From NCBI GenBank assembly GCA_964187785.1, contig OZ076409.1, forward strand, positions 16,988,001 through 17,052,000: a stretch of 64,000 bases of DNA, in the 5' to 3' direction. The stretch is from Amphiscolops sp. MND2022 (Eukaryota). Shown here piece by piece: positions 24,701-54,892 of this stretch. The notes under the pieces were generated by a model. It ran no database searches. It was given only the letters and a program-made list of their open reading frames with translations, and was not told where the DNA came from. How positions within the stretch are numbered: the first letter of the stretch is position 1; every line of letters begins with the position of its first letter. Position numbers and translations under genes: made by a program.

Positions 24701-27700
24701 GAGCCGCCGCCAAGACTAGTCATTTTGCTTACCATTTTACTATTTACTTACCATTTTACTAATTAAGATATGGAGCATATGGTTGAATATAATTGTGTTA
24801 CACAACATAGATACAATCAAGGAAGCTTCCAACGGCCGCCCAAATGAATAATTCACACGAATCGCTGCATTTTGTAAAGCATTTGTTGTTATCATTTCCA
24901 GCCTTGTCTTATGCCCCCAGAAGTTCATGTTCAACCAGCAAGATAATCCGCAACTAACATGAAGGGTTTGAATTACGTAATATATTCCTTAACAAATTCG
25001 CCCTTCGCTATTTCGTTGCTCGATCAGATCCGTCAATTAGCAAAATAATCATCAGTCATTTCATTTGAAGCTTAGAAAATCTATAATCTGAGAAGGAATC
25101 ACACGTCATTCGAATGATAATCAAAGATGACGTTATCCGCTCAGATTGTCACAAAATTAATGAAAAATTGGGTCACCCCATTTTACCAAGTCAACGTTCG
25201 CTAGCCAAAAACTGTAAGCTCTAGAGAATTCCTACTGTTTGTGGGACAAAAAAGCCATGTAAATTTTGGAAGTGAACAGGCGCGTCTAGAGCTCCCGCTG
25301 AAAAAAAGTAACTTACATTTGTTAGCACAGCGAGAACTGCAATTGCTCCCAAAATGTTGAACCAGGTGCCTGAAATAAAGACAAAGATTGATTAGCAATT
25401 CGTATACTAAAAACTTCAAAAAGTGCAATGCTATGTTGAGACAATTTTATGCTACTTTTCGACTTCTAGATTCTTATTTTTCCAGGCATCGGAATTCCAA
25501 TTTTATGAGGCAGATCACGATTGCCTTTTTTGAACGTTATTCATTAAGAATACTTTTTGACCTTATTTCTTTGGGCGCCATTTACTTGAAAATAATTTAG
25601 TTCCGCGCAGGATTCTAATGATTGCGAGGCTTCCTTGATTGCGAAGTTCGCATCTTAACCACTAGGCCGAACGGCGTGAGCAAAATCTGTTCAATAAGTG
25701 TGGACCATTCAGTGTGAGGTCTGTGGTCTGAGGAAAAACTTGCCACAGTAAGTCGGGCACTTTTTATTACAGAAAGCGCCGACAAAAAATATCCGCTTCA
25801 GTAAAGAGGCCTCACTACACTCTAGTCGGACTATTCCTTTATTGGAAGCAACAATTTGGCAACAGCCAAAATATGAACCACGGCTACTCTTGGGATGAAT
25901 ACGGTTAATCAAGCCAACTACTCAAGTTTCATGAGCATGACAATTATGTAACATTCCTCGAAAAGTCTACCAGTTGATCTTGAGATGCGCCTTATGGGTT
26001 CTTTGACTTTTTGATGTTGAAAAGTTGTTGAAAACTGCCATTTATATTTTTGCCCTAATCCACAAGACGTTACGGTGACTTGACCAGAAATATGTTGAAG
26101 CCACCAGATGTTAATGATGGTCGTGGTCAAGTGATTAGAGAAATGTTCAATATATAGGCGAAGCAAGCAATTAAACAACGTGTGAAACTCGAATATCAAA
26201 GTTACCATAATGGACAGTTCCACGTCCGTGACTTCATCGAAATGCCAAGTACATGACAATTATGAAAGAGTGCAGATACTGTATATCTACTGACCAATAT
26301 CCTCGGCCTTTTGCGCCCAGGGTCGTCTGAGCTGGGTGACGAACTTGTATGCGTCCAGTTTGATCTCCACCATGTTGTTGAGGAATGCGAAGAAGGGTGC
26401 GAGGGGGAAGGCGGCCACGAACAGGGTGGTGAAGCCGAACTGGATCACCATTTCCAGGTACTCGTAGAACAGGTTCAGAGGCGGCTGTGCGTTCAGACAG
26501 TAATCTTTCTCCCATCTGGCCAGCTTCAAGTCTTCTTCCTGCAGAAAAAACGAGAAGCCTGTTTAGAATTGAATTATCAAGAATCGAAAAGCGAAGCTGA
26601 ATTATATAGGATCAAATGAGTTATTTAGAGTCGAATTTTGATGAATCGAAAACGATCGTAATTTTTCTAGAGAATATGAATCTAGTAATTATACAGTAAT
26701 TAAACGTCTTGTAAATAAGGTTGGAGAAATGCAGGTGTGAAATTAGTTTGCTTTGTCATCAGTTTTGTCCATTTAACCCCAAATAGTAGAGGTGCACCGG
26801 ACAGGAAATTTTCCGTCCGGCCGGATAACCGGACAGGACATTGAAGCCGGATTCAGGCCGGACTTGACATTATCCTCAATTGTAAGCGATGAAGGGCTGT
26901 TTTCAGAATTGGGCAATGAGGATTACGAAAAACGAACCAGGCCTTTACCACAGAGCGGTGAAAAACTATTTTCCCTCCGACATAATTTAATGAATTTTGA
27001 TTCAGTCACAAATTCAAGTTTTCGATGCACATACATATTTTCTAAGTTAGATATTCCGATTAGTTAAGATTATTCTTTTAAGATAATATCCGGCCGGACA
27101 TGGTAAAAAGTCCGGCTGGATACCGGACAGGACATTTTCCTGAAATCCGGCCGGATACCGGACCGGACTTGTTGTCCGGTACACCTCTACTAAATAGCAT
27201 TGTGGTACGTTTTTGCACCACTTAAGATCTGCAAACTTCTAAAGGTAATGGTAAAGAAAACTCTAGAATAAGATTTTCGGACAATATTACATAGCATTGC
27301 ACGCATTTTCACGGATTGTTGACTTGATGTCTCCAAAATCAAGAGAACGGGACCAAAAAAAATTTTAAAAAAATGAGCGCAAAATTTCCGTTTTTCGTTT
27401 TCTTGTGTGGCCAGTTTATACCACTGAGGACCAGATTGGGTCAAAGTGGCCCTAGCATCTTGCTGAAACACACCGTGCTAAGTTTTGGCGCAAAATGCGG
27501 AGCCAGTGCGGCAAAGCAAGGGACCTCCAACCCAGCAGTTTAAAAATCAAAATGAAAGCCCTGATTGTCTTCTTTCGAACGCGCTAAAAATAATTTGTCG
27601 GACTTGAATAGTTTTGGAGATATTGCGGTTCGAAGTTTAAACACCAGATTTTTGGATGGATCCCGAAAATTCATCCTCAATTCCGGGTTAAACTACAAAT

Positions 27701-30700
27701 CATCGATCATTACACAGAGTAGCCATATCCAAATCCGCTTGTTGAGATGTATTGTATTTCATCATTGAAGGTGACAATAAAGGAACTTCCTTCTACATTC
27801 ACAACACGTTTGTTCAACTGCCATCCCATTAAAGTAGATTAAGACGCCCACAAAACGGATATTTTTAGGTGAAGACATTTTCAACCTCAATCGAAATTAT
27901 CTTTATTGCAAGTCCTCACGAAATGGTCTCGAGTTGGAACAATCAACGGACAACTGGGCGAACCTTCTCTTGCTGGTCTTCTTCGATAACTTGGCCCTCG
28001 ATTGTTTCTTGTTCGCTCTTCTTCAGCTTCCGTTTCGCCATCCATTTGCGCAATGCACTGAAATCAGCAATTGTCTCAAGCGAATAATCAAAGGAGCACT
28101 ATTTCTATGAAAACGTTTGATTTTGTTCAGCTCTGATTTGTAAAGGAAGTGGTTCAACAGAGCATTCTGACAGAATATAAATTATTTCACCCTTGTTTTG
28201 CTAATCATTTTTTGAAATAAAATCATCATTGCTTCTCTCATAAGATCCGAAACCAACTTCAACTTGTTCATGTCTTCTTAATCAAAAACACCTGAATTTC
28301 GTTAACAATTAGTAGAATAACAATGGTTAGCATTCAGGAAGTTGCATAAAGTTGAGAGACCTGATAATGGTAAAAGATCTTGGAGGAACTAGCAATTCAA
28401 TTTATTTTTCAATTCTACAAGTTAGTCCTCAGGCATAAGGCTTATTCACTCAATTGTTCTGGTTCACTACAATTCACTGAGGTATAATTGGTTCATGGTT
28501 AACGAAGGTTAATACAGCACTTTGATTGACCTATTACCAGGAATATTTGGTGAACCAGAGCCGCATGTGCGGTAACGGAGTCGGAAACGGATTAAAATGT
28601 AGTAGGGGAAGGGGGGTTCAGATTCAATAAAGGATCCCAAAATTCTAAGATAGAATTCTTAGACTCAATCATGGATCCCAAAATTCTAAGATAGAATTCT
28701 TAGACTCAATCATGGATCCCTAATCTTAATACATGCATTCAAATTCTGAGCGTGGTAAGACAATTTGAATTTCCAACTAGCAAGGTTATGTTTGATATCT
28801 TGACAGTTTTGACCATCTTTGACAATTGTTCAAACTAGATAATGAAACCATCTTTCCGTACAAAGTCATCAAGCTGTATAAACGAGAATTTTAACTCTGT
28901 TATTCAATTATTGAAATGAACCATCGTTGATAGAAACAAAACCAATGTGAAAGGCCAACTGCTGAATGTTTTCTGACAAATTTTAAACATTTTAAAAACA
29001 ATCTGAAGGTAATTTCGAGAATCATCAAATTCCTCCGCGCTTTTTCCAATAACCAATAAGTTGAAAAATGGTTTTCTTTTTTGGTCGTTTTTCTGCAAGT
29101 GAAAAAATCAAAGCGTAAAGATTTGATGATTCTCAAAAAGATGCATCGCTGTGACGACTGCCAAAAAATTTTTGCTTCTAAAAAGTCACTCTATCAGCAT
29201 ATTCGATAAAAGCATGGAAAAGAACCAACATTGTCCCAATCAAAATTTCGATGTGGTCACTGTGAGACCGAATTTGTTTCAACGAGGAATTTACTTCGCC
29301 ATTTGAGAAATCAACATAACCTTGCTGGCAATTTTAAATGCAATTGTTGTTCAACCATTTTTGGAGCTCAAGTGCCCCTCAATGAACATTTGCGCACTTT
29401 CCATTCCATTCAATCAAATAGTCAAGTTACGAAGCGATTGAACTTTAGTGAAAGTGTTTCAGCTTCTGCCATCAAAACTGCAATAAAGTCTTCCTTTACG
29501 GTGTATCGTTTGGATCTTGAAAAGAACGACGTGGAACCTTTCCACTATTTGATATCCAACACAAAACATTACTTTCATAAACGCAAAGTTACCGGATGAT
29601 GGAAGCTCTCGCATCGGCCTAACTATCCATGTGCAACTCTGTAAGCCTCTGGAGGGTGAAAGAGTAGTCGTTTATTTTCACACCAGAATGGAACGATTCG
29701 GGCATGAAGTTATTGAAGACGATTACAATCATTTCGTGGACCAATTGATTTCTCAATTGAACATTTACTGTACTGCGGGTTCTGGATGGGTTGTTGAATC
29801 ACTTTTAGCTGTGGAAATCAAAGTCGCTGCCCCCATTAGGGAGACGGGATCTTCCTATATTGAGACTCCCGCCTCTCTCAGTGGCCTACGAAGAAGCATA
29901 TTGAATGTGAAGAACAAACGGGACGAGTTTTGCTTTCTGTATTCTGTATTGGCGGCCTTGTATCCTCAAAAGAAGAATGTTGACCGACCATCATCTTATG
30001 TAGATAAATTCGATGAACTACATTTCCAGAAAAGTGACTTTCCAATGTGTTTGAGCAAAATACGCTTCTTCGAAAAACGCAATGATCTGTCGATTACCGT
30101 GTATCGATTTGAAAACGAGACTTTGCAAAATATTTATCACTCAAAAAACCGAACCAGTCGTCGAAAAATTAAATTGTTATTGTTGGAGGGCCAGAAAAGT
30201 CACTACTGCCTAATCAAAAACTTTTCGAACTTGATGCACCAACTGCATCGATCTTCAAAAAGCGATGTAAAGGTCCGAAGAGTAAATTTTGTGGCAATTG
30301 CTTTCAACCCATCATCCGATCCAATTACAGAAAACATATTGAGTTTTGCGAGGATCACAAACCACTGGAAATTACAATGCCTCAATGCGATACGACATTG
30401 TCGTTCAACAATTGGCAAAAAACACAATGGTGTCCTTTTGTTGTCCATGCAGACTTGGAAGCTATCGATGTCCCGAGTGTCAACGGTTCTCAACAAACGC
30501 GAATGACTTCACACACAACTGAAATTGAAAAACAATATCCGGCAAGTTTCGGTGCTGTGCTTTTCGATCAACGAAGTTCTAGCATAGCAAAGAGCTCCTT
30601 TTATAAAGGATTGTATTGAGCGTTCGATGGATACGTTGAGAAGTTGGTTGTCTTGGACCTACCTTCAGAAGCAAAAACATCGCCAATTGAAATTGTCACA

Positions 30701-33700
30701 ATCGGAGCGAGAGCAGTTGATGTCTGCGCCTGAAATCGAGTGTTGTATCTGTGGCGCCAATGTGGATCATGGTCTCAGAGTCGTGCATCATTGCCACCTC
30801 ACGGGTTTCGTTTTCGGGGTGGCTCATTCTGAATGTATTTTGAAAGCGCGATCTGTCAACTTCTTGCCTGTCTTTTTTCATAACCTCTCTCGCTATGATT
30901 CACATCATATCATCAAAAATTTGTTGGTGAAGGAGCATGAAAAATTGTCTGCTATTTCAAGAACCGACGAAGTTTTTATTTCGTTTTCGATTACAGTTCC
31001 TGTGGGCTCCTACACTACAAAGAAAGGTAAAGTTGTTGAAGTTTCCAACGCTCTGAGATTTCTCGATAGCTTTCAGTTCATGGCTCAAGGTCTCGATGCT
31101 TTAGCGAAAACATTAAAGAATGAAGACTTTCTGCTTTTGAAAGATCACTTCACTCAAACCAATCCCGAGGTAGACTGGACGCTGCTTACTGAAAAAGGAT
31201 TTTTTCCTTACAGCTATTTAGATTCTTTTGGAAAGTTTAATGAACCCTTGCCACCCTTTGGAAACTGTTGGAAAAATTCATTGACTGGAAAGGTCGATAT
31301 AACTGAAGCTCAATACGCACAGGCACTCCATATTTATAACCTTTTTCAATGCCAATGTCTTGGCGACTGTCATGACATCTATCTGAAAATAGACGTTTTC
31401 ATCCTAGCCGATGTGTTTCAACTGTTTAGGAAAGTTTGTATGAAAGTGTATTCCCTGGATCCAGCGCATTTTTTCGGCACCAAATCTGAGCTGGGAGGCA
31501 ATGCTCATAACAACGCGAGCAACACTGGGACTTTTGTCAGATGTGGACATGCTACTTTTTTTCGAGAGAGGCATTCGTGGAGGGATAAATGGGATTGGCG
31601 AATTGCGTCATTTTGAAGCCAACAACTCTTATATGGACTCGTTTGACGACACAAAGCCTTCGGTCTTTGGCGCCTTCTTTGATGTGACGTCTTTGTATGC
31701 TGGAACAATGCAGTAAATGCTCCCACTCGATCAATATGCATGGAATGACGCGATAACACTCTCACAAATTCTTCAGACTGACGATGATTCTCCAGTGGGA
31801 TACTTTGTGGAGGTTGATTTGGAATATCCATCCTCATTGCATGATGAACACAATGATCTTCCTTTGGCACCTGAAAAGCTCACGATCAAACAGTCTTGGC
31901 TTTCATCATTTGCGCAAAGTTTTGGTATTAAAGTTTCTTCAGATGGTCCTAACAAGCTGATTGAAACACTCTTCGACAAGAACAATTATGTATGCCACTA
32001 TCGTAATTTAAAATTTTACATCAAACATGGTCTGAAAGTTAAACGGCTGCATCGCGTGATCCAGTTCAGACAGAGCAAATGGCTGGGAGACTATATATCA
32101 AAAAACACTGTGATGAGAAAGCAAGCAGTCAACGACTTTGAGAAAAACTTTTACAAACTAATGAGCAATGCTTGCTTCGGCAAAACAATGGAGAATTTAC
32201 GTAACCGCAGAGAGATTAGCTTCGTTCCGAGCAAAGAACAGGCTGAGAAAGCGTTTCAAAAGCCAACCTTCAAGGGGTTTCAAATCATTCACGACAGTTT
32301 GGTGTCTGTAACTATGACTCCATCCAAAATACTCTGGAACAAACCAACTCCTGTGGGTGCGTCTATTCTTGATCTCTCGAAACTTTGTCTGTACAAATTT
32401 CATTACGAAGAAATGAAACCTCGTTATCACAAAAACTTGAAGGTTTGTTACAAAGATACAGACTCTCTTCTTTACCGTATAGAAACGAAAGATTTATATA
32501 CTGAGATGGTCTCATTCAAACACTTGCTCGATTTATCCGATTATCCAGAGACACACTTCCTCCATGATAAATCAAACAAAAAAGTCCCACTGACAATGAC
32601 CGACGAGCTGCAAGGCAAGGTGTTGACTGAAATTGTTTGCTTACGATCAAAACTGTACAGTATTCAATTCCAAGGCGGCGTCAAGCAGAGCGCCAAGGGC
32701 GTTCAAAAGAGTGTGAAAAAGACTCTCCACCACGATTTGTTCAAGTCCTGCTTGTTCGATAAACAGCCTGTTCGTAAGTCAATGACACAATTGAAGTCCG
32801 AAAATCATCAAATTGTTGTCAACCGGGTCAATAAAATAGCCGTCAGTTCCTATGATGACAAACGCTACCTACTTGAAGATGGAGTACGGTCTCTAGCTTA
32901 TGGGCATTATTCACTGAGGAAGTTTGATGAAAATGGTTAGTTCTTTTCAGATCGCCTCCTACTTTTAAAATGTTTCTTGTTTAAGCTGTTCATATTTGTT
33001 ACAGGGCCATCTTGATGGTCAGTTTATGAATCTGATGGTGAGCAAAGTGTCTCGTCTCGGTCGTCTTCAAATGAATCTTCCTCCACCTTGTCTACCGAAT
33101 CTGACGATGACAATGAGCCTGTCACTGCTGTATATCCTGTTCTACACTCTCTCTTGGAATCAGCTGATTCTTTCAGTAAAATTTTCACTTGTCGATTTTA
33201 TTTTCAAACGAAAAAAAATTTGGCAACAAGAAAAGTTTTGTTCTTTAGGTCCACCGGATCCTGGTTTTCATCAGTCGCCGCAAAGGGAGCAATTATCGTC
33301 TTTGGACTGGGATGACTATGACGAAATGTTGGCAGCACAAGAGAAATGTGATGCCAAACCATCAGCTTGTCCCTTTCTTGACTACGAGGCCATCGAAGCC
33401 AGTGGTAGTGATAGTGAAGACAATGAGAATATTGTAACTGTCAAGAGCAAACGCGATCGATCGAAACGCCTAGTGTCTTATAGTGACAGCGACAACACGA
33501 ATGATGTTTAAAGAATTGTACAAAAAACTTGGTGTTGGGGTTATTTCGTATATTATCAGAGTAATAATAATAATATGGCTATAATATTCTAGTATAAAGT
33601 GTATTTGAAATTTTTTTACAATGTGAATTGAAGTATCTAACTAAATCAATTTCCGAAAGCATTTTCATAGTACTAATTTTGGGGAGAATTTTCTTCATCA

Positions 33701-36700
33701 ACGTTTCATGTGACAAGCTCAAAAGTGAAGTGCTATCGAGGATTTGACAAAAATTGTGGGCCATTAGAAGGCAATATAATCCACACAGGTTTGAACTAGG
33801 ATTCTGCAGAGGAAAAAAGATAACGTCGACATTGGCAACTTTTTTTGAGAGCTGGCTCAAGCGTTTGTGAATCCAAATGTGGCGCGACAGCTCTATTCCC
33901 AATGGGTCCCAAACCCAAATATTGACAAAGTATTTCATCCATGTTTTCAAACAAAGCCTTCGCGCCGGAGCTTTTCTTGTTTTGCGATGGCCAAATTCCT
34001 TTCCAACAGCAACGAGGCAAACTAGTAACCAATGTTGGCCAATTTGGTCCGACTTCGAAGTATTCACAATTTGATAGAAAAAATTAATAGCTCCTGATTG
34101 TTGAAAGCTTTTTTCGAGATCTTTCTCAACGAGAAAGTTGTCGGCGGAAGCGACGCCCAAGTTTTTGTTGAATAGCAAACGGCAGCAACCTTGTGTGAGT
34201 TGAATCAACGTTTCATTGTCCATTGGTCAATACCCAGAGTTTTTCAAAATGTTTCTGCTCGCGTCGATAGTAACCTGACTGTAGCGTTCGCCAATGAGAA
34301 ATAATTCTACTGCTTCTGGGAGGGCTGTTGCAAAGGTCAGTTTCATTGTCAATCCAGCCCCAGTCAGCTCCGGAAACAAGGTCAAGCTTTTACTTGCCCC
34401 TCTTGTGGAAGTTAGGTCGAACACGAGAAAGAAGTGATTGTCTTCGTATTCATCCAACGTGATTCCGTTACCGCTCCGCTCAAACCCTAGAGCTGTTATC
34501 ACATTGTAATACAGTCTTGAATTGTTGGTAGTGTCTAGCGGCGTGCCCGCTATGGGCAAGCCATTCCCACGCTGCAGTTCTACTTTTTGCAAGCTGAACT
34601 TTTCGTAACGGAATGGCGTGGAAGCTAAAGTAGTTCCTCTAAAGAAGCGATTTCGAACCATACACAGAGTCAGTCTACGAATAGGTTCTGTGCCGAAAAT
34701 GTTTTCCTTGACAAAGCAGTTTTGACCAGCTTGAACAATGAAACTTTTTGTCAAATTTTCAATATACGGATAGACCGCTCGACTTTTGGATAATGCTCGC
34801 TCAATGCTGACCTTCACGGCATCAGACAAGACAATTTTATTGACAAACAATGAAGCTTTCTCTATGGTCACAGTTGGGGCATTTTGTTCCAAATCTTTCA
34901 CATCCGCTGCATTCAGAGCTGTGAGGGTTTCCATTGCGCAAAGGTTAGATGATCGGTAGAAGCGCAAATGCAGCGTTACGCCGGGCAAAAGTAGACGCTC
35001 ACATACGAGAAAGTCAATATGAGGCGCTCCATACAATTGTACGGAACATTTTCCCTCGCTGGTGTTTTTGGCTACAATCTTAGCTTTAATTTCATCATTC
35101 ATGTTCTTGTCTCCGCGGTATTGGTAGCCCTGACATCGCGCCCATGTGGCTTTGCTAGTAGTGTCGGTTGATAATTCAGTTTCCACAAAAGCCGAGTGAT
35201 GATAGTTGTTGTTGCTGCTCGAAATCAATTTTTCATTTAGAAACAACTCAACGTGAGAAAATAAGGAGTGAAGAGTATTGTTGGCAAAGATGATGTTTTC
35301 TGAATCATTGAGGCGATCTGTTCCGTTTGGTTTGTACAGGGTCACTTCAAGTGAGAGACATATTCTGTTCAAGTCGATGCAATTTTTGCTATCGGCAGTC
35401 ACGAAAAAATCCAACTGGGGCCCGCGACAGCCAACGTGTGGGAATACTTCTTGATCAAACGAACCTTCGTAATTGATGAGCACTGACGGTTTCTCAAAAA
35501 AGTCCAATGCACTGTGCGTTACAGGATTGGCAATTTCAGAACATGCTCCACTAAACGTTATTGGCGCGGACGCTTGTGATGATGTGGATGACATTGATAA
35601 TTTCTAGGCTTCAGTGAATGCAACACTAGACAAAATGTCGGAGCGACTTCTCTTGGCAACGTTTTTGTTCAAAATGGCAATATTGTTGCTTTTCTTTCTT
35701 TTTCTACTCGACTGCACCGGATTTGTGCTGCCCCCGCGGCTGCCTGCCCGCCCGGTCGCGCGTCGATCAGCCGCCGTCGCCGCTGTCGTCCGCGCGTGAA
35801 GTGGGTGGGGTGGATCGAACAGCAGATGTTTTGACAGTTTTTTCGACTGACTTTTTCAATGATTCTTTCAACGCTTTCCGGGGCGGCTTTTTTTCCTGCG
35901 ACAATTTTGGGAATTTCGGGTACAAATGCCGAAACTAGATTTCGGCCAAATTCTGCCACAGGCACAAAATACTTTTTCACTAATGGCACAGCGACGCGGC
36001 CCATCCTCATTGCAAAGGCTCCTAGTCCCCCCGAGCCGTATTGGCGTGCGGGTCCTCGGAATGTAGTTGCGCTTGAAGACACTTTTGAAAGAATCTGGCT
36101 ATCATAATGCTGATCCATTGGGTTTTGTAACTTTTGTTGAATTTGAAGCAACCGTTCCCGTGGATCTGTAGTCTACAAATGATTTCTGAATGAGAATGGA
36201 GCAACACAGAGAAAGCAAACTTTAGCTGCATCGTTTGAATTGTAAAGTCACATTTGTGCGTCCGCGACTGAGGAATGGAATCAAGTCACCAGTCTCACTT
36301 CTTAGCGATATGGTGATTGATTGAATGGAACAATTGATGAGGCGTCGCCATTGAAGCTTGGAAAATGTTCGCTGATTGTTGCTTGTGGTTGTAGTTGAAA
36401 GAGGTATGGCGCGCAACAGAGCTGATCGCGTGTCGCCCAAAATTTCATTGTGGACCAAATCACAGTAGAGAAACATTGTATGGCATCCAGCCGTCAAGTC
36501 AACCGGATACTTTTCCATTCGGGCGTCGTGACTTTGCTCTTTACTAAAATCCATTCTGGACTTCTCATCAATTTTTCCATTTTCGTCAACATCATGATGA
36601 TTGTTGGCTTTCTCCTGCCCTGCACAATCAATGAGACTTTGCGACCCCAAAATGTTTTGCAAATCTTTTGACACAAGTCTTACTTTGAATGCATCCTCCG

Positions 36701-39700
36701 AGGAACCTGTGAAATTCACATTCAAAATTTGAGAAATTGGACAAATGATCCATTCCACGGTAAAGTTGCGTGGTCAGCTTCGCTAAAAATTTGGCGAAAG
36801 ATCGTGTCCAGCAAGCAATCAATCGTTGGATAGCACCCACATGGTATGGAATGTGGTTTTTCCTTTTCTAACTTGTTTTCTTGCAGAATCGAGTGCGTAC
36901 GTTTGCGAGGATCAGACATCGTCACAAGTCCTGGTGTGTAACCTCTATATGGATGTCGTTTTCTCGAGCTCGCTTCAGTGGTAAGTGTCTCGACTTTTTG
37001 AACGGTAAATTTGCCCTCCGTCACATTTTTGATCAAATTGGGCCACGAAATCTCCACAACGGCAACCTCCCATGTCCCTTGTAGTTGCATTTCTTCAGGG
37101 AGTAATGTAGTGAAGTGTGCCAGAGAATTTTCTGGGAAAGTTGTCATCGATGCGTTGGAAACTAAATTATTGGTAAAGGTATTCCGAGACGACGACTGCA
37201 TTCTGCCGGTGCTGTTTTGAATTTGATTTGGTCCGGTCAAACAATTTCGGCTTTAAAACGAACAAGCTCGCTCTCATAAAATTTGCCTTCAATCAACTGC
37301 TCATTAGCGTCTTTGAGCAAGTACGTGGGAGGATTCAATGTTTTGACCGCCACAATTTCAAAGATTTCTTCGGTGAATTGGATGCGGTAGCCACGATGAA
37401 ACAGGTCAAGTTTTCTCCTGATTCGAACGTGTTGTCCAATTTTAAATCTTGGTTTTTGCACGGCATTGGAATTTTGCAGGGAAACAAGAAAAGCTTCGTC
37501 TGACTTTTGCACTTGCTTGGGGGCCATTTTAGTAATTCGGTTAACTCGAGAATTTATCACGTTAACAAAACTCTGCAACTTGTCTATGTAGACGTCAGTT
37601 CTGTTTTCATGGAGATACTTGAAAATGATAGATTTTAGCGAGCGAATATTTCGCTCAGCAAATGCTGACTTTGTTTCACTGTTTGTTGAGTACAAATCAA
37701 TGGCTGCGTTCTGGGAGAATGATGCAAATTCTCCAGCAAATTCTCGGCCCTTGTCCACCCAAATTTTTTCCGGCTTCCCGGGCACTGCAGTGGTACCTCT
37801 GGTAGCACGACAAAAAAGTGGCTGCATATTGGGTGATTCGTTTCTGATGTCAGAAATTATCTCCTTCAATACATTCCTACATGAATCGGCAGTTTTTCGT
37901 TTTATCGGTCGGACCCAAAGAAATCGACTGAGTGTATCCACCGCGACGAAAAGAAAATTGACGCCATTGTTTGGTCGAGCAAGCTGCTGCATATCAGCCA
38001 AGTCGACCGACCAAATCTCATTGAGTCTGAACGTTTGAACCTTGAGACGAAGAAATTTTTTCTTACTTTGTTTGAACTTTGAGTAAGTCTCATTCTTATG
38101 AAGGTAATTATCTACTTGTTCATAACTGCAGTTTGAGTACTTTTTGAGAGACGCACGGCTTCCAAACGATGCCGGACTCTGACATGAAGTGTATAGAGTG
38201 TGTAACTTGCTGTAAGCAATTGAATCCGCATTCGCTGGTACCAGTCGTCTAGTTTTTGAACATTTCGAACACATAAAATTCCCTGAAGATTTCGGATAGT
38301 CGGCTGCACTGCTCAGACCGCTGCATTTGAAGTGAACACAGCCACAAACGTTGCACCAGATTGATGGCTTTTGACGTGTTCCTTTCCCCAACGAATGCGC
38401 ACAGCTGCCGCAAAAACAATCTTGTTTTTTGGTTCTCCTTGTTTGTGTTCTTCTCTTGCATTGTTCCATAAGGATGGACGCTTTAGTAAAGACGCAGCCA
38501 CTTGGCTTGATTGCTGAACGATTCAGATTGGTCTTGCGAATCGTCTTCGTTTAAAATTGTTCTTTTGATTTCAGCAGCTGCTTTTTTAGCATTCGGGTTC
38601 GCTAAAAGGTACTCTGGCAATTGCAAGCGGCGAACTAAGTCAAGCGTAGGCTCGTTTAAATTTTTCGTTGTTGTCTGCAGATAGTAGAGGAAATCAAAAA
38701 CAGACACCCCTGTGTCGCGGTCGTGTAACAAAATTCTTCCCGAACTTTTATCAATTGAAACGTTCTCAGTATCGTTAATCTTGCGAAGTATTTGTCGAGA
38801 GCGTTCAACTTTTCCACCACTGAGTCCTACAGATAAAAGTTCAATAATGACGTTCTCAGATTTGGACGACTGTGATGCTGCCTCTGTCTTTTTGAAATCA
38901 GATAGGGTTGTTGCGGGTTGCGATCTTTTTTGAATCGGGAATGCAAATTCCATTGTGCACATTCTGATGCTGAGGGAAACTGCAAGCTAACTTTTCCCTT
39001 GTTTTCGAGCTCTGATACTGATGTATTTTCGTTTTCCTTCAAGTCAGTTGTTGCTGCCCGCTCCGCGCTTTCTGATTTGCGAAGTGACGATAACGCTGAA
39101 TACTCTACAGCTGTGATTAGAATGAAGTCTTTTGCCCTACTGTTTAATACCATGTCGCTTTTTCAAATGATTAGAAACGGATGGTTGTATTATTCTCAAC
39201 AGCCGGAGACCATTGGTAGTTGAGAGAGAATGCCGTTTTCGCCGTATTCCAACTTTTTTGTTGTTGAGAAGATCAATTAGTTTCCTATGCGGATTTAACT
39301 GTTTCCTCGAAGCTGGTGCAATCATCTGGATATTACCGCTGAGAATATTGAAAATGCAATCGCAAAAAAATTTTGTCAATAGAACAATGTGAAATATACA
39401 GTCGTTTTACAATTGGCTCCATTTCGCTGAAAAAAACATACAAATAAAGCTCTTGTTGACTCATTGTTCAACTGTTCCGAAGTGTGATTCGAAGTTATAT
39501 AAAAGATCGAAGGCTCATTGCCCGAGCATTTGGAAGCGTATTTAAGTTTAGGGTCTGTATGAGGATCGAAGTCAATCAACAAATGACCAAACGCTTCACG
39601 AGTTGCTCTTTTATAGGCGTCCAGTAACAATTGTCTGTCTCCCATTTGACGTCCCAGAACAGCTATTTGCTCCAAATCTCGCGGGCTCTTGAAAAGAATA

Positions 39701-42700
39701 ATTTGAGTGACGTTTAGCTCTATTGTTTTCGAGTGCTTCGATTGTTGAAAGAGATTGTGCTTCAGAGTAATCAAATGGATATTTCGATGTCTCCCTGCAA
39801 TTACCAAATTCAAAAAATATTCGTCTTCGCATGCTTGTTGGTAGAGGTCATCAATCACCAAAAGAGTTCGCAAGCTCTGCGCTTCACACTTTTCGACTGC
39901 ATTCCAGTCGAGGCCCTGATGGAATTCGATTTGTACTTTAGATTGAACACATTTCAATTGCAGTTCTTCGAAGTTCGGTTGGAAATGATTGTACAGGTAG
40001 AGAATTTTGTCAAAAGAAGGTCTGAAAACTTTATATACTTTATATTGGTTCACTAGCATACTTGAGACCAACTGAGTTTTTCCACTTCCACATGGTCCGA
40101 CAACTGACAGGAAGCAGTGAGGATCCGTTCGAATACGCTTGTTCATTTGTCAGACTTCGGAATCAAATATCCAATGCAGGTAGATAGAACAGCTATTATT
40201 CCAGTTTTATGCAAACTGTTCTCGGCCAATACTAGATAAAGAAATGAGCAAATGATCACCATGAATAATAGAAAATATGTAGTTGAAATCACAAGAAAAG
40301 ATCTGCTGCAGTTAATTTCATCAGTGCAACATCCACAATTTAGTTTAAAAGGCGGCCTTTCTTCATTATTGTAATCTAATATCAAGTTGTTGATGTTAAC
40401 ATGATCAACACAGTCCCCAACACAGGCCACTATAGTTGATTCGTCGGATGTTTCCGATGTTTTGCTAGCATTGTCGTTCATATCGCTGGGTGGTTCTTTA
40501 ACACATGTAGGTGGTACAAAATTTGAATCAATTTGTGCAACTGTAAAAGATCATTGAAATTTAGGTGAATGCTCGAAGTTTTTGTGCTATTGAGTGCCAG
40601 AACCTGTTCAATGACAACTTGAGGACCTCTTGACGAAATTACAGCGCGTATATTAGTTGGGTGATAGAGGAACGTTAACTGAAATGTGGATGGATTTTTG
40701 TGCGACTGACATTGGTGGAGGTTGCGAGAGAAAGTGATTAAAACTTCAAACGGTTATATTCTTTCCGGTGTAACAGTTTTTGATAAAACCAAAACGCCAA
40801 TCCCGTAATGTTACCAATAAACATGTTGTTGGCAAAGATTGGTTTTTCACTCAGAGTATATACGTAGCCTGGTCCTACGCCGAAGTTACTCCTCATGAAG
40901 CCAAAAGCATCGTGAAATATTGCATGTAGCCGAAATATTTTAAAGTGTTTCAGCCACTTATCCATCAGACTATCTCCGGGTCCTATGAGACCACCGAAAG
41001 GTGCCAAATCGTTTATATCATGAAGGTTGACTTCTTTGTTTAATCACCAACAGACAGCTAGAAATGCATTTTTACGTTGAGAGTTTTCAGGGAACAAGTA
41101 GTTTGTAAGCTGGAAGTTATTTTCCAATAGTTCAATATCAATGAATTTCATCATACGATAGTCAACTTGCTTGTTTTTTGAAAACCAACTGCTTTTTAGA
41201 TTAAATTCACAATAAATGAATTAGACAATCAAAGTGTGCATTCTCATCAACGAAAGAGAAAAGATTACATTCATTGTGTTCGTTACCGGTCAAACTGGCT
41301 CCACAAAAGCTAGTTGAATTGTCCTGGCATTCAAAACAGACATTGTGCGTCAGAAAATCCCAAGTCTACTGACAAAACATTATTGTGATGAGACGCCTTG
41401 GTAGTCCCGAATCCTCTCATGAGAAGCTCAATAAAATCGAGAACACTGTCTTTAAAAACTGCTGGAGACTTCTCGAGCTCGGCTAATCGCTTGCTAAGAA
41501 AGGAAAGTTTTTCAATGTCTTCACTTTCATCGAATTCTGTGTAACAGCTGCGCTGAAGCTCCCATGACATTTCATAACTGCATCCCAAATCAGTTGTTGG
41601 TTTCATTTTCAAAATTGATTTCATCTTTTCCCCATGAATGAACAAACGGTTTCCACCAAGTTGTGCTTCAGTTTGAAGACAATTTTCCGGGTATGAAACT
41701 GAATAATTTGACGAGACTGTCTTTGATTTTTGTTCCTTTTTGTGAATTCAGGAAGTTGTTACTTATGGTGTCTTTGATGAATTTCTCTGCGCCCACGAAT
41801 GATTTGATGTAGAACAGAACGTGATAGTGTTCTCCAAGAACGTTTGAACACTCATCTTCCGCTTCACTCTTGTTGGTCGTGTTGTGACATCTGATACTGT
41901 ATTCACAAAAAGTGTTGTTGAGTAGGCTCTTCACCAAGCGACGGAGGCTCTCCGGTAGTTTTGGTTGAAGTATTTCATTTGCATATTTGATTATTTTGCA
42001 GGGAGGTGGATCATGAAGTTCCCGACCTGAAGTCTCTTCTTTAGAGAAATACACCAAATAATAAAAACGTGAAGGAACTTCTCTAAATATACTGGTCATG
42101 GCGAAGTCTAACTAGAGAATGATTTCTGTGACGAAAAGTAATCTTATCAACTTTTCAGGTTATGCAATTCCATTTTTCCATAGTTATGGTTTTTCTCAAG
42201 TCGATTTTCCATTCGCACAGTCCGAGCGTGCATTCCGTTTTGGAATGTGCATGAAATTTTGAGTATGCATTGGTTGTTCGGACTGTGCGGTTATGCCATA
42301 AATGGTATCTCAAATTGGTTACTTGTGTTAGAAGTTTTTGTTAAAATTTCTAACACAAGGATGAGTTTCTAATTTCTTTGCTGTTTTGAGGGATATCTTA
42401 CCGCTTACAGTTATTTGGAGGTTGAGCATGAAGAAAAGAAGGTTAGTTAAAATTCATTTTCTAAAATTTTTGTCAAAAGGTTTAATTTCTGTATCAGTGC
42501 ATATTTATTTAGCTGTCAATGTTTGTTGTTTAAGCAAAGTTCATGTCGATCTCGAACTTTGGCCTTATAGCATGTTTTAAGATTAGGGATCCATGATTGA
42601 GTCTAAGAATTCTATCTTAGAATTTTGAGATCCATGATTGAGTCTAAGAATTCTATCTTAGAATTTTGGGATCCTTCATTGAGTCTAAACCCCCCTTCCC

Positions 42701-45700
42701 TTACTACTAACCAACTTCAACTTGTTCATGTTTTCTTAATCAAAAACACCTGAATTTCGTTGACAATTAGTAGAATAACAATGGTTAGCATTCAGGAAGT
42801 TGCATAAAGTTGAGAGACCTGATAATGGTAAAAGATCTTGGAGGAACTAGCAATTCAATTTATTTTTCAATTCTACAAGTTAGTCCTCAGGCATAAGGCT
42901 TATTCACTCAATTGTTCTGGTTCACTACAATTCACTGAGGTATAATTGGTTCATGGTTAACGAAGGTTAATACAGCACTTTGATTGACCTATTACCAGGA
43001 ATATTTGGTGAACCAGAGCCGCATGTGCGGTAACGGAGTCGGAAATGGATTAAAATGATGGAAAACAACGTACTTTATTGTCATTTGGTCATTTTTGGAC
43101 TACTTTTGGCTATGTTTCTCAGAACCCAGTCATACCTTTGGGTTTAAAATGACTGAGCTAAATTTTATAGATGTATGGACAGGTTTTAAGAAATTTGAAA
43201 CTTTGATTGAAAGGTACGGAGAAAAAAGGTACGAGTGCATAAGTAGTTGAAAACTTTTTCCAACTCCCAGAAAATCAACTATGAATTTTGATCCTACTTT
43301 AAACAATTTACTTTTCAACTTCTGGGAACCACGACATTGACATGAGTGAAACTTACGGGAGTCCAGCTTCCTGAAGGTTGCTATACGCTTGTTTTCCTAC
43401 CATGATGATAGCCAGTTGTGTCATGAGATCAAACAGACAACCTCCGGGTCCACACTGAAACAGAAAAGCCACCGGTCGCAGAAAATAACACATTTACACT
43501 GAGGGTCGTCAGTGACAATCGATATGACGGTATGATCAGAGTACAAGTGTTACGTAACATTGATCTGTATTACGCAACATTGACAAGTGTGACGTAGTAT
43601 TGTCTGGAAATTTTGACTTTTCACTCAAAATTTTAATGCGGTGAAACAGTAAGGACAAATATGGTATGTAACTCTGCTTCGGCTTATTAAACGGTTCATA
43701 GACCATCAGCTATCCTTTTTTGTTGTTTTCATTATTGAATTACAACGAAAAATTGGTTTCAAAAAACTTTGCAACTAGGTGTTGACAAGTGACAACGAGG
43801 AGAGTGGCGGAGGAATTCGAAAATAAACATTTAGTTATACCTCTTAACTATTATTTAGTTGTTATCCGGAGTCAAGTACTGATGAAGGCTGCTGAGAATG
43901 GCCTATAATACAGATGAGCATATCTTTCACTCACCTTATACTGACTCTGGAAATTTCGAAGAAATCAAGGGAAATTATCATTTCAACACTTGAAGCACTC
44001 ATTTCAGATTCAAACTGCACGGATTTTGATAGACTGAGCTTCAATGAAACATGAACAATCGGAAAAAACTAAACGCTGGCTCACTAAATAAATTTTACAT
44101 TGAAACGACATGAAAGTTGAATTATCAGTTTCCGCCCATAAATTCATAAGGAAAAGGAAGTTGTGTTGCTTATTTAAAGGTGTTTCATCCATGAGCTGAC
44201 TTACAAGACACCTTTTGATAGCTTCCTCTCTCTGTCACCTTTAAATGTACCTTTACCAGCATTAAAAATTTCCGTCTAGCGCTGGATTCGAACTCACGTA
44301 CACGTAGAGAAACTCGCGTTAACCTCCAGGCCAATTGGAGAGCACTTTCTAGCTTTCCACCAGCACTTCTAAATTCTACTGGCAGAACCCGGGGAGAGAA
44401 TATTCAAAAAAATCCCCGGCCAAAACTAATCCAAAAAGGCCTCGTCAAAAAACAACAACAGCTTAGAGTACATTTCGAAATAAGTGCCTTTTAAACGCAT
44501 TCATTTCGGCTAACCTCTTGCAACCTGTATTTGTCGAAGAGCAGGTTGTATCTCGTAGGATATCCACCAAAGCGTCCCTTGAAGAATGCAATGTAGACGA
44601 TTGATGAGTAGTAGTTGACGAATTGGAACACAAACATCTTCAGGGTGTACGAATTGTCGAACTCAGTTTCTGTGCGGGGACATTCGAATTCGGTGAGTTT
44701 GAACGCGAGCACATTGTACATACGAGAGAAGGTGAAAATGAAGAGGAGATTGACAAAGGCTGCAGTACTTGAAGTCAGTATGCTAGCCAACGTTGGCTGT
44801 ACATTTTGGTGGACAAAAAAGTAGGCTGCTAGAGCTCGGTAGATGATCACAGCGATCACCGCTCCCAGGACTACTGTTATCTGAACACAGAAAAGACATC
44901 AGAAGATGGAATCCAACTGACTCAAAAGAACCAACGATTGAAACACATGAATGAATACTTACCATGAACATTACAATAGAAAGAGTCGCACAGATTTTCG
45001 GAATCTTCACTGTCAGAGGCATGAATGGTTCAGCCATCTAAAACAAAAAATTGCTAATTTTTAAAATAAAACATGGAAAATTCAGGGACCCTGCATGGAA
45101 CGATTTTGTAAAACTTCCAAGCAGTTTACAGAATTTCTGAAAAACGAACTTATTAATACCAAGAAGATTCGCTAAATGAGCATCGAGTAACACAGTAACT
45201 AACAATCCGATCGGCACTCGAAAAGGCGCCTGTTAAAACAGTATCGAAATATAGTAACCATGTACAAAGAGGGGCATTCATTGCGAGGTCTGTGGTTAAG
45301 ATAAAAAATATCTTATGTAAGGCACTCTTACAGCTGAACAATCTAATGTCTCAAATGTTATTTTAATGATTTCATGTTGAAGCTTCATGTTAAATCTCAA
45401 AATTATGAAATTATGATTTAGGTTAAGAAAAATTGCTGGGGATTCCAAGACTGAAAATGGAAAATCCCACCAAAAAACAATAACTTGACTTAAAATGGAA
45501 TCAGAAGAAAGGGAAAAACTTACAAGTGTGACCGGATTAGTTTGCCACCACGAGTTTTTCTTCTTTTCGTTCTTCAACACGGCCAGTCTAGCCTTGCGCT
45601 CAAACTGTGGCCGAATGACCTGCGTACCCTGTTCGTAGTCGAACAAATCCCACTCATAGCTCAGTTCGTTCTTTCGTCTCTTCCAGAACTCCAGGAACAT

Positions 45701-49149: not shown

Positions 49150-50110
49150 CGTAGCAATAAGCATTTTCTGCAACCCAATATAGAATATTTCTTTTCCACT
49201 TGGGTCCGATTTTGTTTCGGACTTTGACCAATAATTTTATATTTGTCGGGAAGGGGAAATTAATCAACACTGCTTTGAATTTTTGCCTTTTTGCTATCGG
49301 TATCAGACTGCTGTCATGATCAGCAGTGTCCTTCTCTGACATCGAGATGGCCAAAATACTTTTATAATGTTTCAACGATTCTTTCCTCGCTTGTTATGAT
49401 GAGCGTTTACAACGGTTCAACGTGCATGCGATCCGGCATTTTCCATTCCAAGTGGAACAGTTTGGTACCCTATGGACTCTGTCCATGTTTTCTTTCGAAA
49501 ATGCAGATCACAACCTCCAGTACTGTCAAACACGGAAAACTTATTGTGGAACGCTTTATACGTCTCAAGCAATTACTGAGTCAAAAAGTAGATAACGATA
49601 ACCTCAAATGCTTCAAACACTCCTTCCTAAACTGTAAATCAGATGTCGATGGAACAATGTATACAACTGTCTCCGATGAAGTTATAGACTTCGTTCTCGA
49701 AAATTTAGAATGCGGATCTGTTGAAAGCTGGATGGGACGCCTCAAACACAAGTGTGGAATATTACTCTCGAGAGAGTTAGTAACTTTCGAGACAACCGAG
49801 TAAGTTATTTTCGGCTGTCCAAGAAGTCCACTTGTTTTTTATTATTCCACAAAAATCACAATTGTATGGTGAAGCACAGGCTTTTTTGTTTCCAAAACTA
49901 TCATCTATGCTGTTATGAAAGTCTATCCTGTTGTTAAGGTTGTGAACCTTTTCGGTTCAAAAACTCAATGCTGGACGAGGTGAATGATAAACTTATTGTT
50001 GCTGTCTCCCTTGAAAGATACGAACTTCTGACAATCGAGGCCTCTTTCATCGTTTGTCGTTGTTATGAGTCATTGAAATCTCATGATAGTGTAGTATTGT
50101 CCAAAATAGT
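49150..50110 (+). pseudogene. CACTA/EnSpm-like transposase, C-terminal remnant
   Basis: FLFHLGPIL; LFAIGIRLL...DIEMAKILL; FNVHAIRHFPFQVEQFGTLWTLSMFSFEN (N.H...H....V...G.LW..S.F.FE motif). Multiple stops and frameshifts. Confidence 0.7.
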
Positions 50111-50744
50111 TGAAGGTTTTGATCACGACTGGCTCCGAAATCAAAATAGCTTTTTTTCTGCTCAGTCAGTGCGGAACAGTCTGTCTGAGTTGATAGCATA
50201 TGCGGAACAACTATGCTGGTTTTGTCACCTCATCGAAATTAATTTCGTTTTTTTTTTGCTTTCCACTGTTTCAGTTATTCCTTATCGATCATTAATCCTT
50301 GTATTTGAACTTTCAATACTAATCATTTTTCATCTAATCTTGGTATTGCTTAAGTGCTCAATCAGTGCGGAACAGTCTGATTGTGAAATAGGATTGTGCG
50401 GAACAGCCAATCTTTCAATAGAACTGGTTTTGTTCATCTGAGTATTGAATGCAACCTAATGAAATTACATAACCGTTTATTCGCTATTTGCTGTAATTTT
50501 TTGCTTTTCACTGTTTCAATTATTCCTTATCGATCATTAATCCATATATTTGAACATTTAATACTAATCATTTTTCATCTAGTCTTGGTATTGCTTAAGT
50601 GCTCAATCAGTGCGGAACAGTCTGACTGTGAAAAAGGATTGCGCGGAACATCCAATCTTTTAATAGAAGTGGTTTTATTATTCTGAGCATTGAATGCAAG
50701 CTAATGCAATTACATGACCTTTTTTCCGCTATTTTCTGTTAGTA

Positions 50745-51983
50745 ATGTCTTTTGCTGCCAAAGTGACAAAGGTCAAAAAGACCACTGCCAGGAGTAAGAC
50801 GGTAGAGGAGAATGCGCAACTTAGAGAAGCGGTAAAAGGTGTGAAATTCTTGGCTTTCTGGATTAATGAGAAAAAAATATAACTGTATTAGCGTCGACGA
50901 CCCCCGGTGGCCACGCTCATGCTCGATTGCGGAAAAATTGTCTCCACCCAAATCGGGCAAAATTTTCAATGGAGAGCCATCGGGAGAAAACATCTCTTTG
51001 GTCCGCAGTGAAGCAGACATGCCAGCTAAAAAGGCAGTGATTGACAGTTTTATCAATAGCAACCGGCGTTTGAAGACATTTGTAGCTTGAATGTCACTCG
51101 AGAGGTTGAAGCGCGGGAAAAAGCAAAACCAACTCGACAACTTCAAGCTTATGAGTCGGGTGACTCTGCGTCTTCACATAAGTCTTCCGTGAACTTGCAA
51201 GATATGGAAGAGGACGAAAAAGAGCTGAATCCCGAGGCTTTGAAGTATATCGGATTTCGAACTCCTGCCAAAAAGCGAAAACGTCGTTTTAGTGGTAAGG
51301 AAAATGTAGAACCAGGGTCTTCTATGGGAAGTGACATCGCGAATTCGTCCTTCGGATCTGTGGTTAGTGATAGTCTGGAGCTAAATGCAACGTTGAGAAC
51401 GTTGGGCAACGCGATTAAAGAGCTCAATGGCGAGATAAGGAACATGCGACAAACAGATAAAACTTTGGCAAAAGAGAACAAGTATCTCAGGGAGTCGGTA
51501 CTCCCACCATGAAGGCCGGCGAAATGACACCTGAGAAACAAGTCCGCTTTGACGGATTCAATGTAATGACATGGTATGGTGAAACGCCAGCAAAGTTTGG
51601 CTTGCAACTAGCTCGCAAAATATGTGGCGAGGATGCTTTGGTGACACATATGATGGAACCAACAGAAGGCGCTGGTCGCCGATCACTGGATCAATCCAAA
51701 GTTGCGATTATTAAAGGTAAGGATCCAGTGTGTTTTAATAAATTCTTGACAAAACTGTTCACTGTGTCGAATAATTCACCTCACGTTTTGACAGTTGATT
51801 TTTTTTACTTCAGAAGCACTAGTTGCACGCTTCGGGAGCACCCCTGTGGTAATCGACCAAGCTCGGAGATCAATTAATCAATGGGGAATAGACGAAAAGG
51901 AACGTAGAGAAAAAAAAGCGGAGCAAGCGGAACAAATTCGAAATCCCTCAAAGCCCAACGAGATACTCGAAACCAATGAATGA
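50745..51983 (+). pseudogene. BEN-domain protein, copy 1
   Basis: Coiled coil, then KFGLQLARKICGEDAL...RRSLDQSKVAIIK|EALVARF...INQWGID (BEN-like; intron 51717-51813). Frameshift and TGA at 51510. Confidence 0.7.
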
Positions 51984-53633: not shown

Positions 53634-54892
53634 ATGTCTTTTGCTGCCAAAGTGACAAAGGTCAAAAAGACCACTGCCAGGAGTGAGACTGTAGAGGAGA
53701 ATGCGCAAGAGAAGCGGGAAAAGAGTGAAATTCTTGGTTTTCTGGATAAATGAGAAAAAATATATAACTGTATTGGCGTCGACGACCCCCGGTGGTAACG
53801 CTCATGCTCGATTCCGGAAAAAATGTCTGCCCCCAAATCGGGCAAAATTTTCAATAGAGAAACATCGGGAGAAAACACCTTTTTGAACCTCAGTGCAGGA
53901 GCTAAAGCAGACATGCCAGCTAAAGAGGGAGTGGTTGACAGTTTTATCAATAGCAACCCTGATCCGGCATTTGAAGACATTTGTAGCTTGAATGTCACTC
54001 GAGAGGTTGAAGCGCGGGAAAAAGCAAAACCAACTCGACAACTTCAAGCTTATGAGTCGGATGACTCTGCGTCTTCACATAAGTCTACCGTGAACTTGCA
54101 AGATATGGAAGAGGACGAAGAAGAGCTGAATCCCGAGGCTTTGAAGTATATCGGACTTGGAACTCCTGCCAAAAAGAGAAAACGTCGTTGTAGTGGTAGG
54201 GAAAATGTAGAACCAGGGTCTTCTATGGGAAGTGACATCGCGAATTCCTCCTTCGGATCTGTGGTTAGTGACAGTCTGGAGCTAATTGCAACGTTGAGAG
54301 CATTGAGCAACGCGATTAAAGAACTAAATGGCGAGATAAGGAACATGCGACAAACAGATAAAACTTTGGCAAAAGAGACCAAGTATATCAGGGAGTCGAT
54401 ATTCACACCATCAAGGCCGGCGAAAATGACACCTGAGACACAAGTCCTCTTTGACGGATTCAATGTAATGACCTTGTACGGTGAAACGCATGCAAAGTTT
54501 GGCTTGCAACTAGCTCGCAAAATTTGTGGCGAGGATGCTTTGGTGACACATATGATGGAACCAACAGAAGGCACTCGTCGCCGATCACTGGATCAATCCA
54601 AAGTTGCGATTATTAAAGCTAAGGATCCAGTGTGTTTTAATTAATTCTCGAGAAAACTCAACTGTTCACTGTGTCGAATAACTCACCTCACGTTTTGACA
54701 GTTAATTTGTTTTTACTTCAGAAGCACTAGTTGCACGCTTCGGGAGCACCCCTGTGGTAATCGACCAAGCTCGGAGATCAATTATTTAATGGGGAATAGA
54801 CGAAAAGGAACGTCGAGAAAAAAAAAGCGGAGCAAGCGGAACAAATTCGAAATCCCTCAAAGCCCAACAAGATACTCGAAACTAATGAATGA
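53634..54892 (+). pseudogene. BEN-domain protein, copy 2
   Basis: 273-aa open stretch; early indels, GC donor and CAA>TAA in the last exon. Confidence 0.7.

What the first reader, a model, noticed from the sequence alone, without database searches (positions are those of the whole stretch)
37237..38469. Polinton integrase carrying an N-terminal PHD finger and no chromodomain
Seen: aa 20-70 (38260-38412) read CxxC...IWCxxC-GCV-HxxC...CxxC ahead of the usual integrase N-terminus (LYTS...PASF). The protein stops right after the SH3-like region, and the DDE triad is intact. Established: PHD fingers read histone H3 tails, and many Polinton and chromovirus integrases carry a C-terminal chromodomain instead. 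Inference: an independently acquired chromatin-reader module for target-site choice. The finger is one residue short before the His and lacks the cage Trp, which points to unmethylated H3K4 or a degenerate reader.
Basis: partly seen in the sequence, partly recalled or inferred. Interest (0 to 1): 0.7.

Follow-up and report, generated by a model that had tools for sequence, protein, structure and literature searches.

The report
Polinton integrase with LINE-derived PHD finger
A group of virus-like jumping genes in this animal genome has an insertion enzyme that begins with a conserved zinc finger of the predicted PHD type, likely taken from an unrelated retrotransposon and likely used to grip chromatin in general, since its copies show no clear difference in where they land.

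Summary
The 410-aa integrase lies in a full-length Polinton, has D156/D239/E272, no chromodomain, and a C4HC3 finger at aa 20-70 that is predicted to fold as a PHD.

The short spacing before the His is clade-wide. The missing Trp is specific to this copy (8 of 8 sibling loci have it). No acidic patch for unmethylated H3K4 exists. The finger did not replace a chromodomain: finger-less sister lineages lack one too.

The finger is under purifying selection and defines one integrase clade. Its nearest non-integrase relatives are 2A-like + PHD + APE-endonuclease N-termini of LINEs, and the early-branching members keep the 2A-like leader. This points to capture from a LINE. A second Polinton lineage carries a dissimilar N-terminal finger.

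Function is untested. The finger is basic (+3 to +11) and lacks the cage Met. Flanks of 77 finger-bearing and 66 finger-less copies barely differ. A general chromatin tether fits best; non-canonical methyl-lysine reading is possible.

PHD-integrase fusions are known from Ginger1, and this scan noted C-terminal ones in LTR elements. None was found for Polintons in my searches.

The parts
37237..38469 (-). Polinton integrase ORF, 410 aa: basic N-tail, PHD-type finger, three-helix region, DDE core, beta-rich C-terminal domain, no chromodomain
38260..38412 (-). C4HC3 finger (aa 20-70), three-residue spacing before His. This copy has Cys at two positions (aa 18, aa 44) that are aromatic in sibling copies
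37654..38004 (-). Catalytic core D156, D239, E272
28599..28736 (+). Left terminal inverted repeat; lacks the terminal A seen in sibling ends
42570..42708 (-). Right terminal inverted repeat with intact (AGT)2-type end
28251..28599 (+). Left copy of a 349-bp host duplication flanking the element (3 mismatches to the right copy)
42709..43057 (+). Right copy of the 349-bp host duplication
29688..32940 (+). Protein-primed DNA polymerase B region, in three or more ORF pieces (broken in this copy)
   Evidence: DNA_pol_B_2 E 1.8e-5 and 1.7e-9
33579..34223 (-). Adenovirus-type protease-like ORF
   Evidence: Peptidase_C5 E 0.02, weak
34227..35594 (-). Probable major capsid protein
   Evidence: Capsid_N E 0.039, weak; conserved beside related integrases
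39376..40146 (-). A32-type packaging ATPase
   Evidence: Pox_A32 E 6.8e-8

Best explanation
A clade of Polinton integrases carries a conserved N-terminal zinc finger, predicted to fold as a PHD, that was likely captured with its 2A-like leader from the start of a LINE ORF2 and likely serves as a general, basic chromatin or DNA tether during integration rather than as a selector of specific sites. Shown: fusion, conservation, purifying selection, one integrase clade, nearest relatives in LINE-type proteins, 2A-like leader in early-branching members. Inferred: direction LINE to Polinton; later loss of the leader; binding to nucleosomal DNA through the basic surface, perhaps helped by a partial aromatic pocket. 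The window's copy is a slightly decayed member whose finger has lost two aromatic residues.
For: Fold: pLDDT 87-93 over aa 21-70; the finger-only model's best matches are PHDs (BPTF Z 5.3, rmsd 3.0, 62 aligned; Pygo 4.7; TAF3 4.5). Selection: finger dN/dS 0.09-0.32 in four unsaturated family pairs, core 0.05-0.12. Clade: 23 of 23 short-spaced rows on one branch, 96/93. Origin: after Polinton fingers, the best scores on a finger HMM are 2A-like+PHD proteins of APE type (44-53 bits) against 14-25 for host-like PHDs (APE domains); P0041 vs P0279 42% over 65 aa including the leader, E 4e-13; Atlas structure rows 4-6, 9, 10 are PHD+RT clusters (all under the naming bar). 2A-like+PHD+APE is described in CR1/Crack LINEs (PMC3708506). 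Tether: net charge +3 to +11, mean +6.7, n=37, against -4 for a TAF3-like finger; no Met at Cys3-3 in 0 of 37, where PHF23 M353V abolishes H3K4me3 binding (PMC7335091); finger-less sisters have a basic N-tail there; flanks of 77 vs 66 copies do not differ in CpG o/e or GC.
Against: No binding of any kind was measured. Known DNA-binding PHDs are atypical C3HC2H fingers (PMC6222470), not this C4HC3 type. Trp at His-2 (35 of 37) and an aromatic at Cys1-2 (25 of 37) are kept, which suits a methyl-lysine pocket. Z-scores under 8 may reflect only a common arrangement, and FYVE domains score close (Z 4.0). The finger tree has 57 columns and does not resolve a donor. Paraphyly of the 2A-bearing rows is borderline (p-AU 0.048, group named after a first tree), and the finger tree joins them (84). 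Flank proxies are weak, see surviving copies only, and repeat cover was slightly higher for finger-bearing copies (p 0.03 at 2 kb, uncorrected, 15 tests).
Confidence: 0.5

Rival explanations
1. The finger is a non-canonical H3K4me2/3 reader in the manner of RAG2, steering integration towards active chromatin.
For: Trp at His-2 in 35 of 37, Trp/Tyr at Cys1-2 in 25 of 37 (TAF3 has Trp there), Trp/Tyr at Cys3-1 in 37 of 37. Best sequence and fold matches are H3K4me3 readers. RAG2's Arg2 pocket lacks an acidic residue and has a Tyr (PMC3241642); that this Tyr sits just before Cys3 is recalled, not checked. Two-aromatic cages suffice (PMC7335091).
Against: No Met at Cys3-3 (0 of 37; Ser 21, Thr 6, Leu 5); Asp at Cys3+1 in 1 of 37; strongly basic surface. 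No CpG or GC shift in flanks relative to finger-less families.
Confidence: 0.25
2. The finger has no chromatin role: it helps integrase multimerise, bind element DNA ends or a viral or host partner, standing in for the HHCC zinc finger that Polinton integrases lack.
For: Polinton integrases lack the N-terminal zinc finger (PMC2836005). Insertion flanks look alike with or without the finger. PHD fingers can bind non-histone proteins (PMC3241642).
Against: Finger-less sisters are abundant and recently active in the same genome (123 scored matches, many near-identical), so no structural need is evident. No partner was identified.
Confidence: 0.17
3. One reading: a reader of unmethylated H3K4, or a degenerate relic.
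For: This copy has Cys at His-2 and Cys1-2. A hydrophobic residue precedes Cys3, as in H3K4me0 readers (PMC3241642).
Against: The Trp is present in 8 of 8 siblings. No acidic cluster before Cys1. Purifying selection on the finger is close to that on the core.
Confidence: 0.08

Closest known systems
Polinton/Maverick elements of animals (adintoviruses; PMC8502044, PMC8097293, passages read)
   Same: pPolB, integrase, A32 ATPase, protease-like and capsid-like genes; TIRs with (AGT)2 ends; 6-bp TSD in 7 of 10 two-ended copies of this TIR family.
   Different: The integrase lacks the predicted chromodomain described for adintoviruses and starts with a PHD-type finger; neither paper mentions PHD (0 hits).
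CR1/Crack/L2 LINEs with 2A-like + PHD + APE ORF2 N-termini (PMC3708506 passages; PMC4120745 passages and section 12)
   Same: Same module order, 2A-like leader then PHD; nearest sequence relatives of the finger; some share the short spacing.
   Different: Here the module is fused to a DDE integrase of a DNA element; the leader lacks the canonical Asp in 9 of 9 and is absent from the crown families, including this one.
Ginger1-9_HM transposase (PMC2836005, passages)
   Same: PHD finger on an integrase-type DDE transposase.
   Different: C-terminal, next to a Ulp1 domain, in a cut-and-paste element.
RAG2 PHD finger in the RAG1/2 recombinase (PMC3241642, passages)
   Same: PHD finger serving a DDE enzyme; Arg2 pocket without an acidic residue.
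   Different: RAG2 is a separate subunit with proven H3K4me3 binding; weak fold match here (Z 3.3) and no binding data.
Canonical H3K4me3 readers (PHF23, PHF13, TAF3, BPTF)
   Same: Best PDB sequence and fold matches; conserved Trp at His-2.
   Different: One residue shorter before the His, no cage Met, aromatic instead of Gly/Glu before Cys3, basic rather than acidic.

Membership tests
Polinton/Maverick | pPolB plus retroviral-like integrase | tested here: met
   polymerase in pieces in this copy
Polinton/Maverick | Packaging ATPase, protease, capsid genes | tested here: met
   ATPase E 6.8e-8; protease and capsid weak (E 0.02, 0.039), both conserved beside related integrases
Polinton/Maverick | TIRs with (AG)3 or (AGT)2 ends | tested here: met
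   138-bp TIR; right end intact, left end one base short
Polinton/Maverick | 6-bp target-site duplication | tested here: not met
   This copy has a 349-bp duplication; the TIR family meets it in 7 of 10 two-ended copies
PHD finger | C4HC3 zinc ligands | tested here: met
   8 of 8 in P0001; 37 of 121 proteins. Zinc binding itself not measured
PHD finger | Pfam PF00628 at the curated cut-off | tested here: not met
   No hit for P0001; best member 21.5 bits against a cut-off of 24, and that one is the four-residue type
PHD finger | Fold: two-stranded sheet plus short helix matching solved PHDs | tested here: met
   Predicted model only; top 8 VIA rows are PHDs, Z 4.3-5.3; FYVE at 4.0
H3K4me3-reading PHD | Invariable Trp at His-2 | tested here: met
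   35 of 37 family proteins; not in this copy
H3K4me3-reading PHD | Met/Tyr cage residue three before Cys3, and acidic Arg2 pocket | tested here: not met
   Met 0 of 37; Asp after Cys3 1 of 37 (register)
H3K4me3-reading PHD | Selective binding to methylated H3K4 | not testable with these tools
   needs peptide or nucleosome assays
Unmodified-H3K4-reading PHD | Acidic cluster before Cys1 and no cage | tested here: not met
   Cys1-3 is K/R in 26 of 37; Trp retained (PMC3241642)
2A ribosome-skipping peptide (relatives only) | GD(V/I)ExNPGP motif with activity | tested here: not met
   9 of 9 leaders lack the Asp; activity not testable here

The most novel reading that the evidence does not exclude
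Polintons captured PHD fingers at the integrase N-terminus twice, at least once from a LINE ORF2 complete with its 2A-like leader, and the short-spaced finger is a new non-canonical chromatin reader, using two tryptophans in place of the usual Met/Asp pocket, that biases where a virus-like DNA element integrates.
Probability: 0.22. Interest if true: 0.75.

Novelty: new variant of a known kind. Interest (0 to 1): 0.5.

Why it matters
It is a traceable case of a module moving from a retrotransposon into the integrase of a virus-like DNA element, with the 2A-like leader left as a fingerprint of the donor. PMC4120745 (2014) knew of no functional study of LINE PHD fingers. This genome holds many young copies of both finger-bearing and finger-less sister families, so what a mobile-element PHD does for integration can be tested by comparing their insertion sites with chromatin maps.

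Tried and rejected
Complex prediction of a sibling finger with the host H3 tail: score 0.03, no verdict, not used. No RNA holder was listed, so expression and start site are untested. Word-index search for longer proteins with the leader+finger: none of 83 candidates at E<=0.01; the profile search found them. No relative in viral contigs (0 of 28 candidates). A downstream start at M66 was rejected as the family's start: that position is mostly Leu in other families, which start a few codons before Cys1; the first ATG is absent in one sibling (L003). A target repeat shared by finger-bearing copies was not seen; chromosomal position did not differ (p 0.11, 60 vs 60). The careful 82-row tree did not finish, so a quick tree was shown; there 5 rows labelled 'none' inside the clade are truncated or deviant copies. 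The 37-row tree left out 45 rows. The RAG2 structure paper was not held. Earlier scan notes were leads only.

Full report
1. Observation. The ORF at 37237-38469 (-) gives 410 aa without stops and matches Pfam rve at E 2.5e-6. The eight ligands lie at aa 20, 23, 39, 42, H46, 49, 67 and 70; the catalytic residues are D156, D239 and E272. D156 and E272 are invariant in 10 of 10 family frames. The AlphaFold2 model (37-row alignment) has pLDDT 87-93 over aa 21-70, three helices at 81-125, the core, and a beta-rich C-terminal domain. Foldseek's best matches are foamy-virus and RSV integrases (E 3.6e-13). Nothing chromodomain-like follows the stop by eye.

2. Context. The gene lies in a 14.1-kb Polinton bounded by 138-bp TIRs, with pPolB in pieces, an A32 ATPase, and weakly matched protease and capsid genes. 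An anoctamin exon lies at 45520-45718 (E 5.8e-11) and a further exon that looks like anoctamin by eye lies near 26300-26540, so the element probably sits in an intron.

3. The finger is a PHD by fold, not by Pfam cut-off. P0001 has no PHD hit; 20 of 37 aligned members match at E<=1, best 2.3e-4. A finger profile hits PHF23 PHD at E 3.6e-4, then ceKDM7A, BPTF and PHF13. The finger-only model (mean pLDDT 76.8) matches PHDs first in Foldseek (best E 0.03, none at 0.001) and in VIA (BPTF Z 5.3, rmsd 3.0, 62 aligned; top 8 rows PHDs; FYVE at 4.0). These Z values are modest.

4. Family feature versus copy damage. The own genome gave 109 integrase matches and 150 scored finger matches of 354 candidates. 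Of 121 proteins, 37 have all eight ligands with the three-residue spacing; His-2 is Trp in 35 and Cys in 2. All 8 sibling loci at 96-98.5% DNA identity have Trp there, and 5 of 5 legible siblings have Tyr where this copy has Cys18. Across ten family frames the finger keeps 62% mean identity against 56% for the linker, 68% for the core and 70% for the C-terminus. dN/dS is 0.09-0.32 in the four unsaturated pairs of 8 printed (45 possible, not independent), against 0.05-0.12 for the core.

5. Origin. A profile search of 1.84 billion representatives gave 99 hits. After the Polinton fragments come proteins with a hydrophobic 2A-like leader, the finger and an APE endonuclease (P0159, P0166, P0188, P0197; P0219 also has RT; 73 of the 99 were scanned). 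P0160, P0166 and P0177 share the short spacing. On a local HMM of 30 Polinton fingers these score up to 53 bits, a second group with one RT-bearing member 30-41, and host-like PHDs 14-25. Nine integrases and the own genome's 427-aa family keep the leader directly before the finger. P0041 aligns to the LINE protein P0279 over leader and finger at 42% (E 4e-13). The own genome also has long frames with both finger and APE matches. PMC3708506 (passages) describes 2A-like + PHD + APE at the ORF2 N-terminus of CR1 and Crack elements. In a 37-row core tree rooted on finger-less integrases, the 23 short-spaced rows form one branch (96/93); leader-bearing rows occupy the two earliest branches, and holding them together is borderline rejected (p-AU 0.048). 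Capture from a LINE followed by loss of the leader is the simplest account. The donor clade is unresolved.

6. A second finger. P0069, P0078 and P0080 carry a four-residue-spaced finger that scores at most 3.4 bits on the HMM. Locus L296 shows such an integrase among ATPase, capsid and protease genes. The core tree does not reject a common clade (p-AU 0.375), so two captures are likely but not shown.

7. Chromodomain. None of the 120 listed relatives has a precomputed chromodomain family. Finger-less relatives in 10 of 10 own-genome loci and in metagenome contigs end at the same point; only the distant L326 has a chromodomain-like tail by eye. The chromodomain was therefore absent before the finger arrived.

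8. What it binds. PMC3241642 (passages) gives the rules: H3K4me3 readers have an invariable Trp and often an acidic Arg2 pocket; H3K4me0 readers have an acidic cluster before Cys1. The family keeps the Trp, has Trp/Tyr at Cys1-2 in 25 of 37 and at Cys3-1 in 37 of 37, but has Met at Cys3-3 in 0 of 37, Asp at Cys3+1 in 1 of 37, and net charge +3 to +11. PHF23 loses binding with M353V (PMC7335091, passages). LINE fingers are basic as well (+2 to +7). H3K4me0 reading is unlikely, canonical H3K4me3 reading is doubtful, and a basic tether with or without a variant pocket fits best. This step is inference.

9. Insertion sites. I located one end for 77 of 80 finger-bearing and 66 of 68 finger-less copies and drew 40 random stretches. 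Finger-less status was read in 10 plus 10 partly overlapping loci and inferred from frame length for the rest. Over five window sizes CpG o/e (p 0.37-0.95) and GC (p 0.05-0.89) did not differ between the classes. Shared-repeat cover was slightly higher for finger-bearing copies (0.36 vs 0.28 at 2 kb, p 0.03; 15 tests, uncorrected). Both classes had higher CpG o/e than random at 2-4 kb (p 0.001-0.004). Both show the same local base bias. These are proxies without annotation and reflect survival as well as targeting.

10. Literature. Nine searches, five of them aimed at a Polinton PHD-integrase, listed no paper describing one; most listed papers were seen as titles and abstract starts only. Passages were read in PMC2836005, PMC8502044, PMC3708506, PMC3241642, PMC7335091, PMC6222470, PMC8097293, PMC5041404 (also the abstract) and PMC4120745 (also section 12). 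No supplements were read; Repbase and subscription journals were not searchable, so prior cataloguing is not excluded. The clade occurs beyond this genome: P0050's best own-genome match is 52%. Earlier scan notes report C-terminal PHD fingers on Gypsy and Copia integrases in other genomes (unchecked).

11. Verdict. Real, conserved and apparently undescribed for Polintons, but built from known parts and without evidence of site targeting. New variant of a known kind; interest 0.5.

Noticed in passing
window 28251-28599 and 42709-43057; L180/L032; L056/L054: Long target-site duplications: of 10 two-ended copies sharing this TIR, 7 have an exact 6-bp TSD and 3 have 349, 36 and 103 bp. The window's left end also lacks its terminal base. 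This resembles one-ended aberrant retroviral integration (PMC5041404); the rate looks high. Other families were not tested.
   Followed up: partly
L046/L048, L049/L055, L053/L052, L056/L054: Elements of 8-11 kb share the first ~158 bases of this TIR but are shorter than the 14-kb element; possibly deletion derivatives or another family. Interior not read.
   Followed up: no
L296:2757-3638; P0069, P0078, P0080: Second Polinton integrase lineage with a dissimilar, canonically spaced N-terminal PHD finger.
   Followed up: partly
P0158, P0176, P0180, P0182, P0186, P0187, P0190, P0193-P0195: A group of proteins with the same short-spaced finger at the N-terminus; P0194 also has a reverse transcriptase but no APE match, possibly another non-LTR clade.
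   Followed up: no
window 49800-64000: Tandem array of about six 2.2-2.9 kb units, each containing copies of a ~244-bp repeat and a coiled-coil-like ORF without a Pfam match at cut-off.
   Followed up: no
window 1083-3926 (-): LTR-retrotransposon pol fragment (RT, RNase H, integrase zinc finger) with a weak dUTPase-like ORF (E 0.027) upstream.
   Followed up: no
window 28620-28720 and 42588-42688: The TIR contains 2.5 copies of a 41-bp tandem unit with an internal palindrome-like core.
   Followed up: no
L063; G000:C11:23041576-23044981: Some copies carry internal tandem duplications of several kb that include the integrase start.
   Followed up: no
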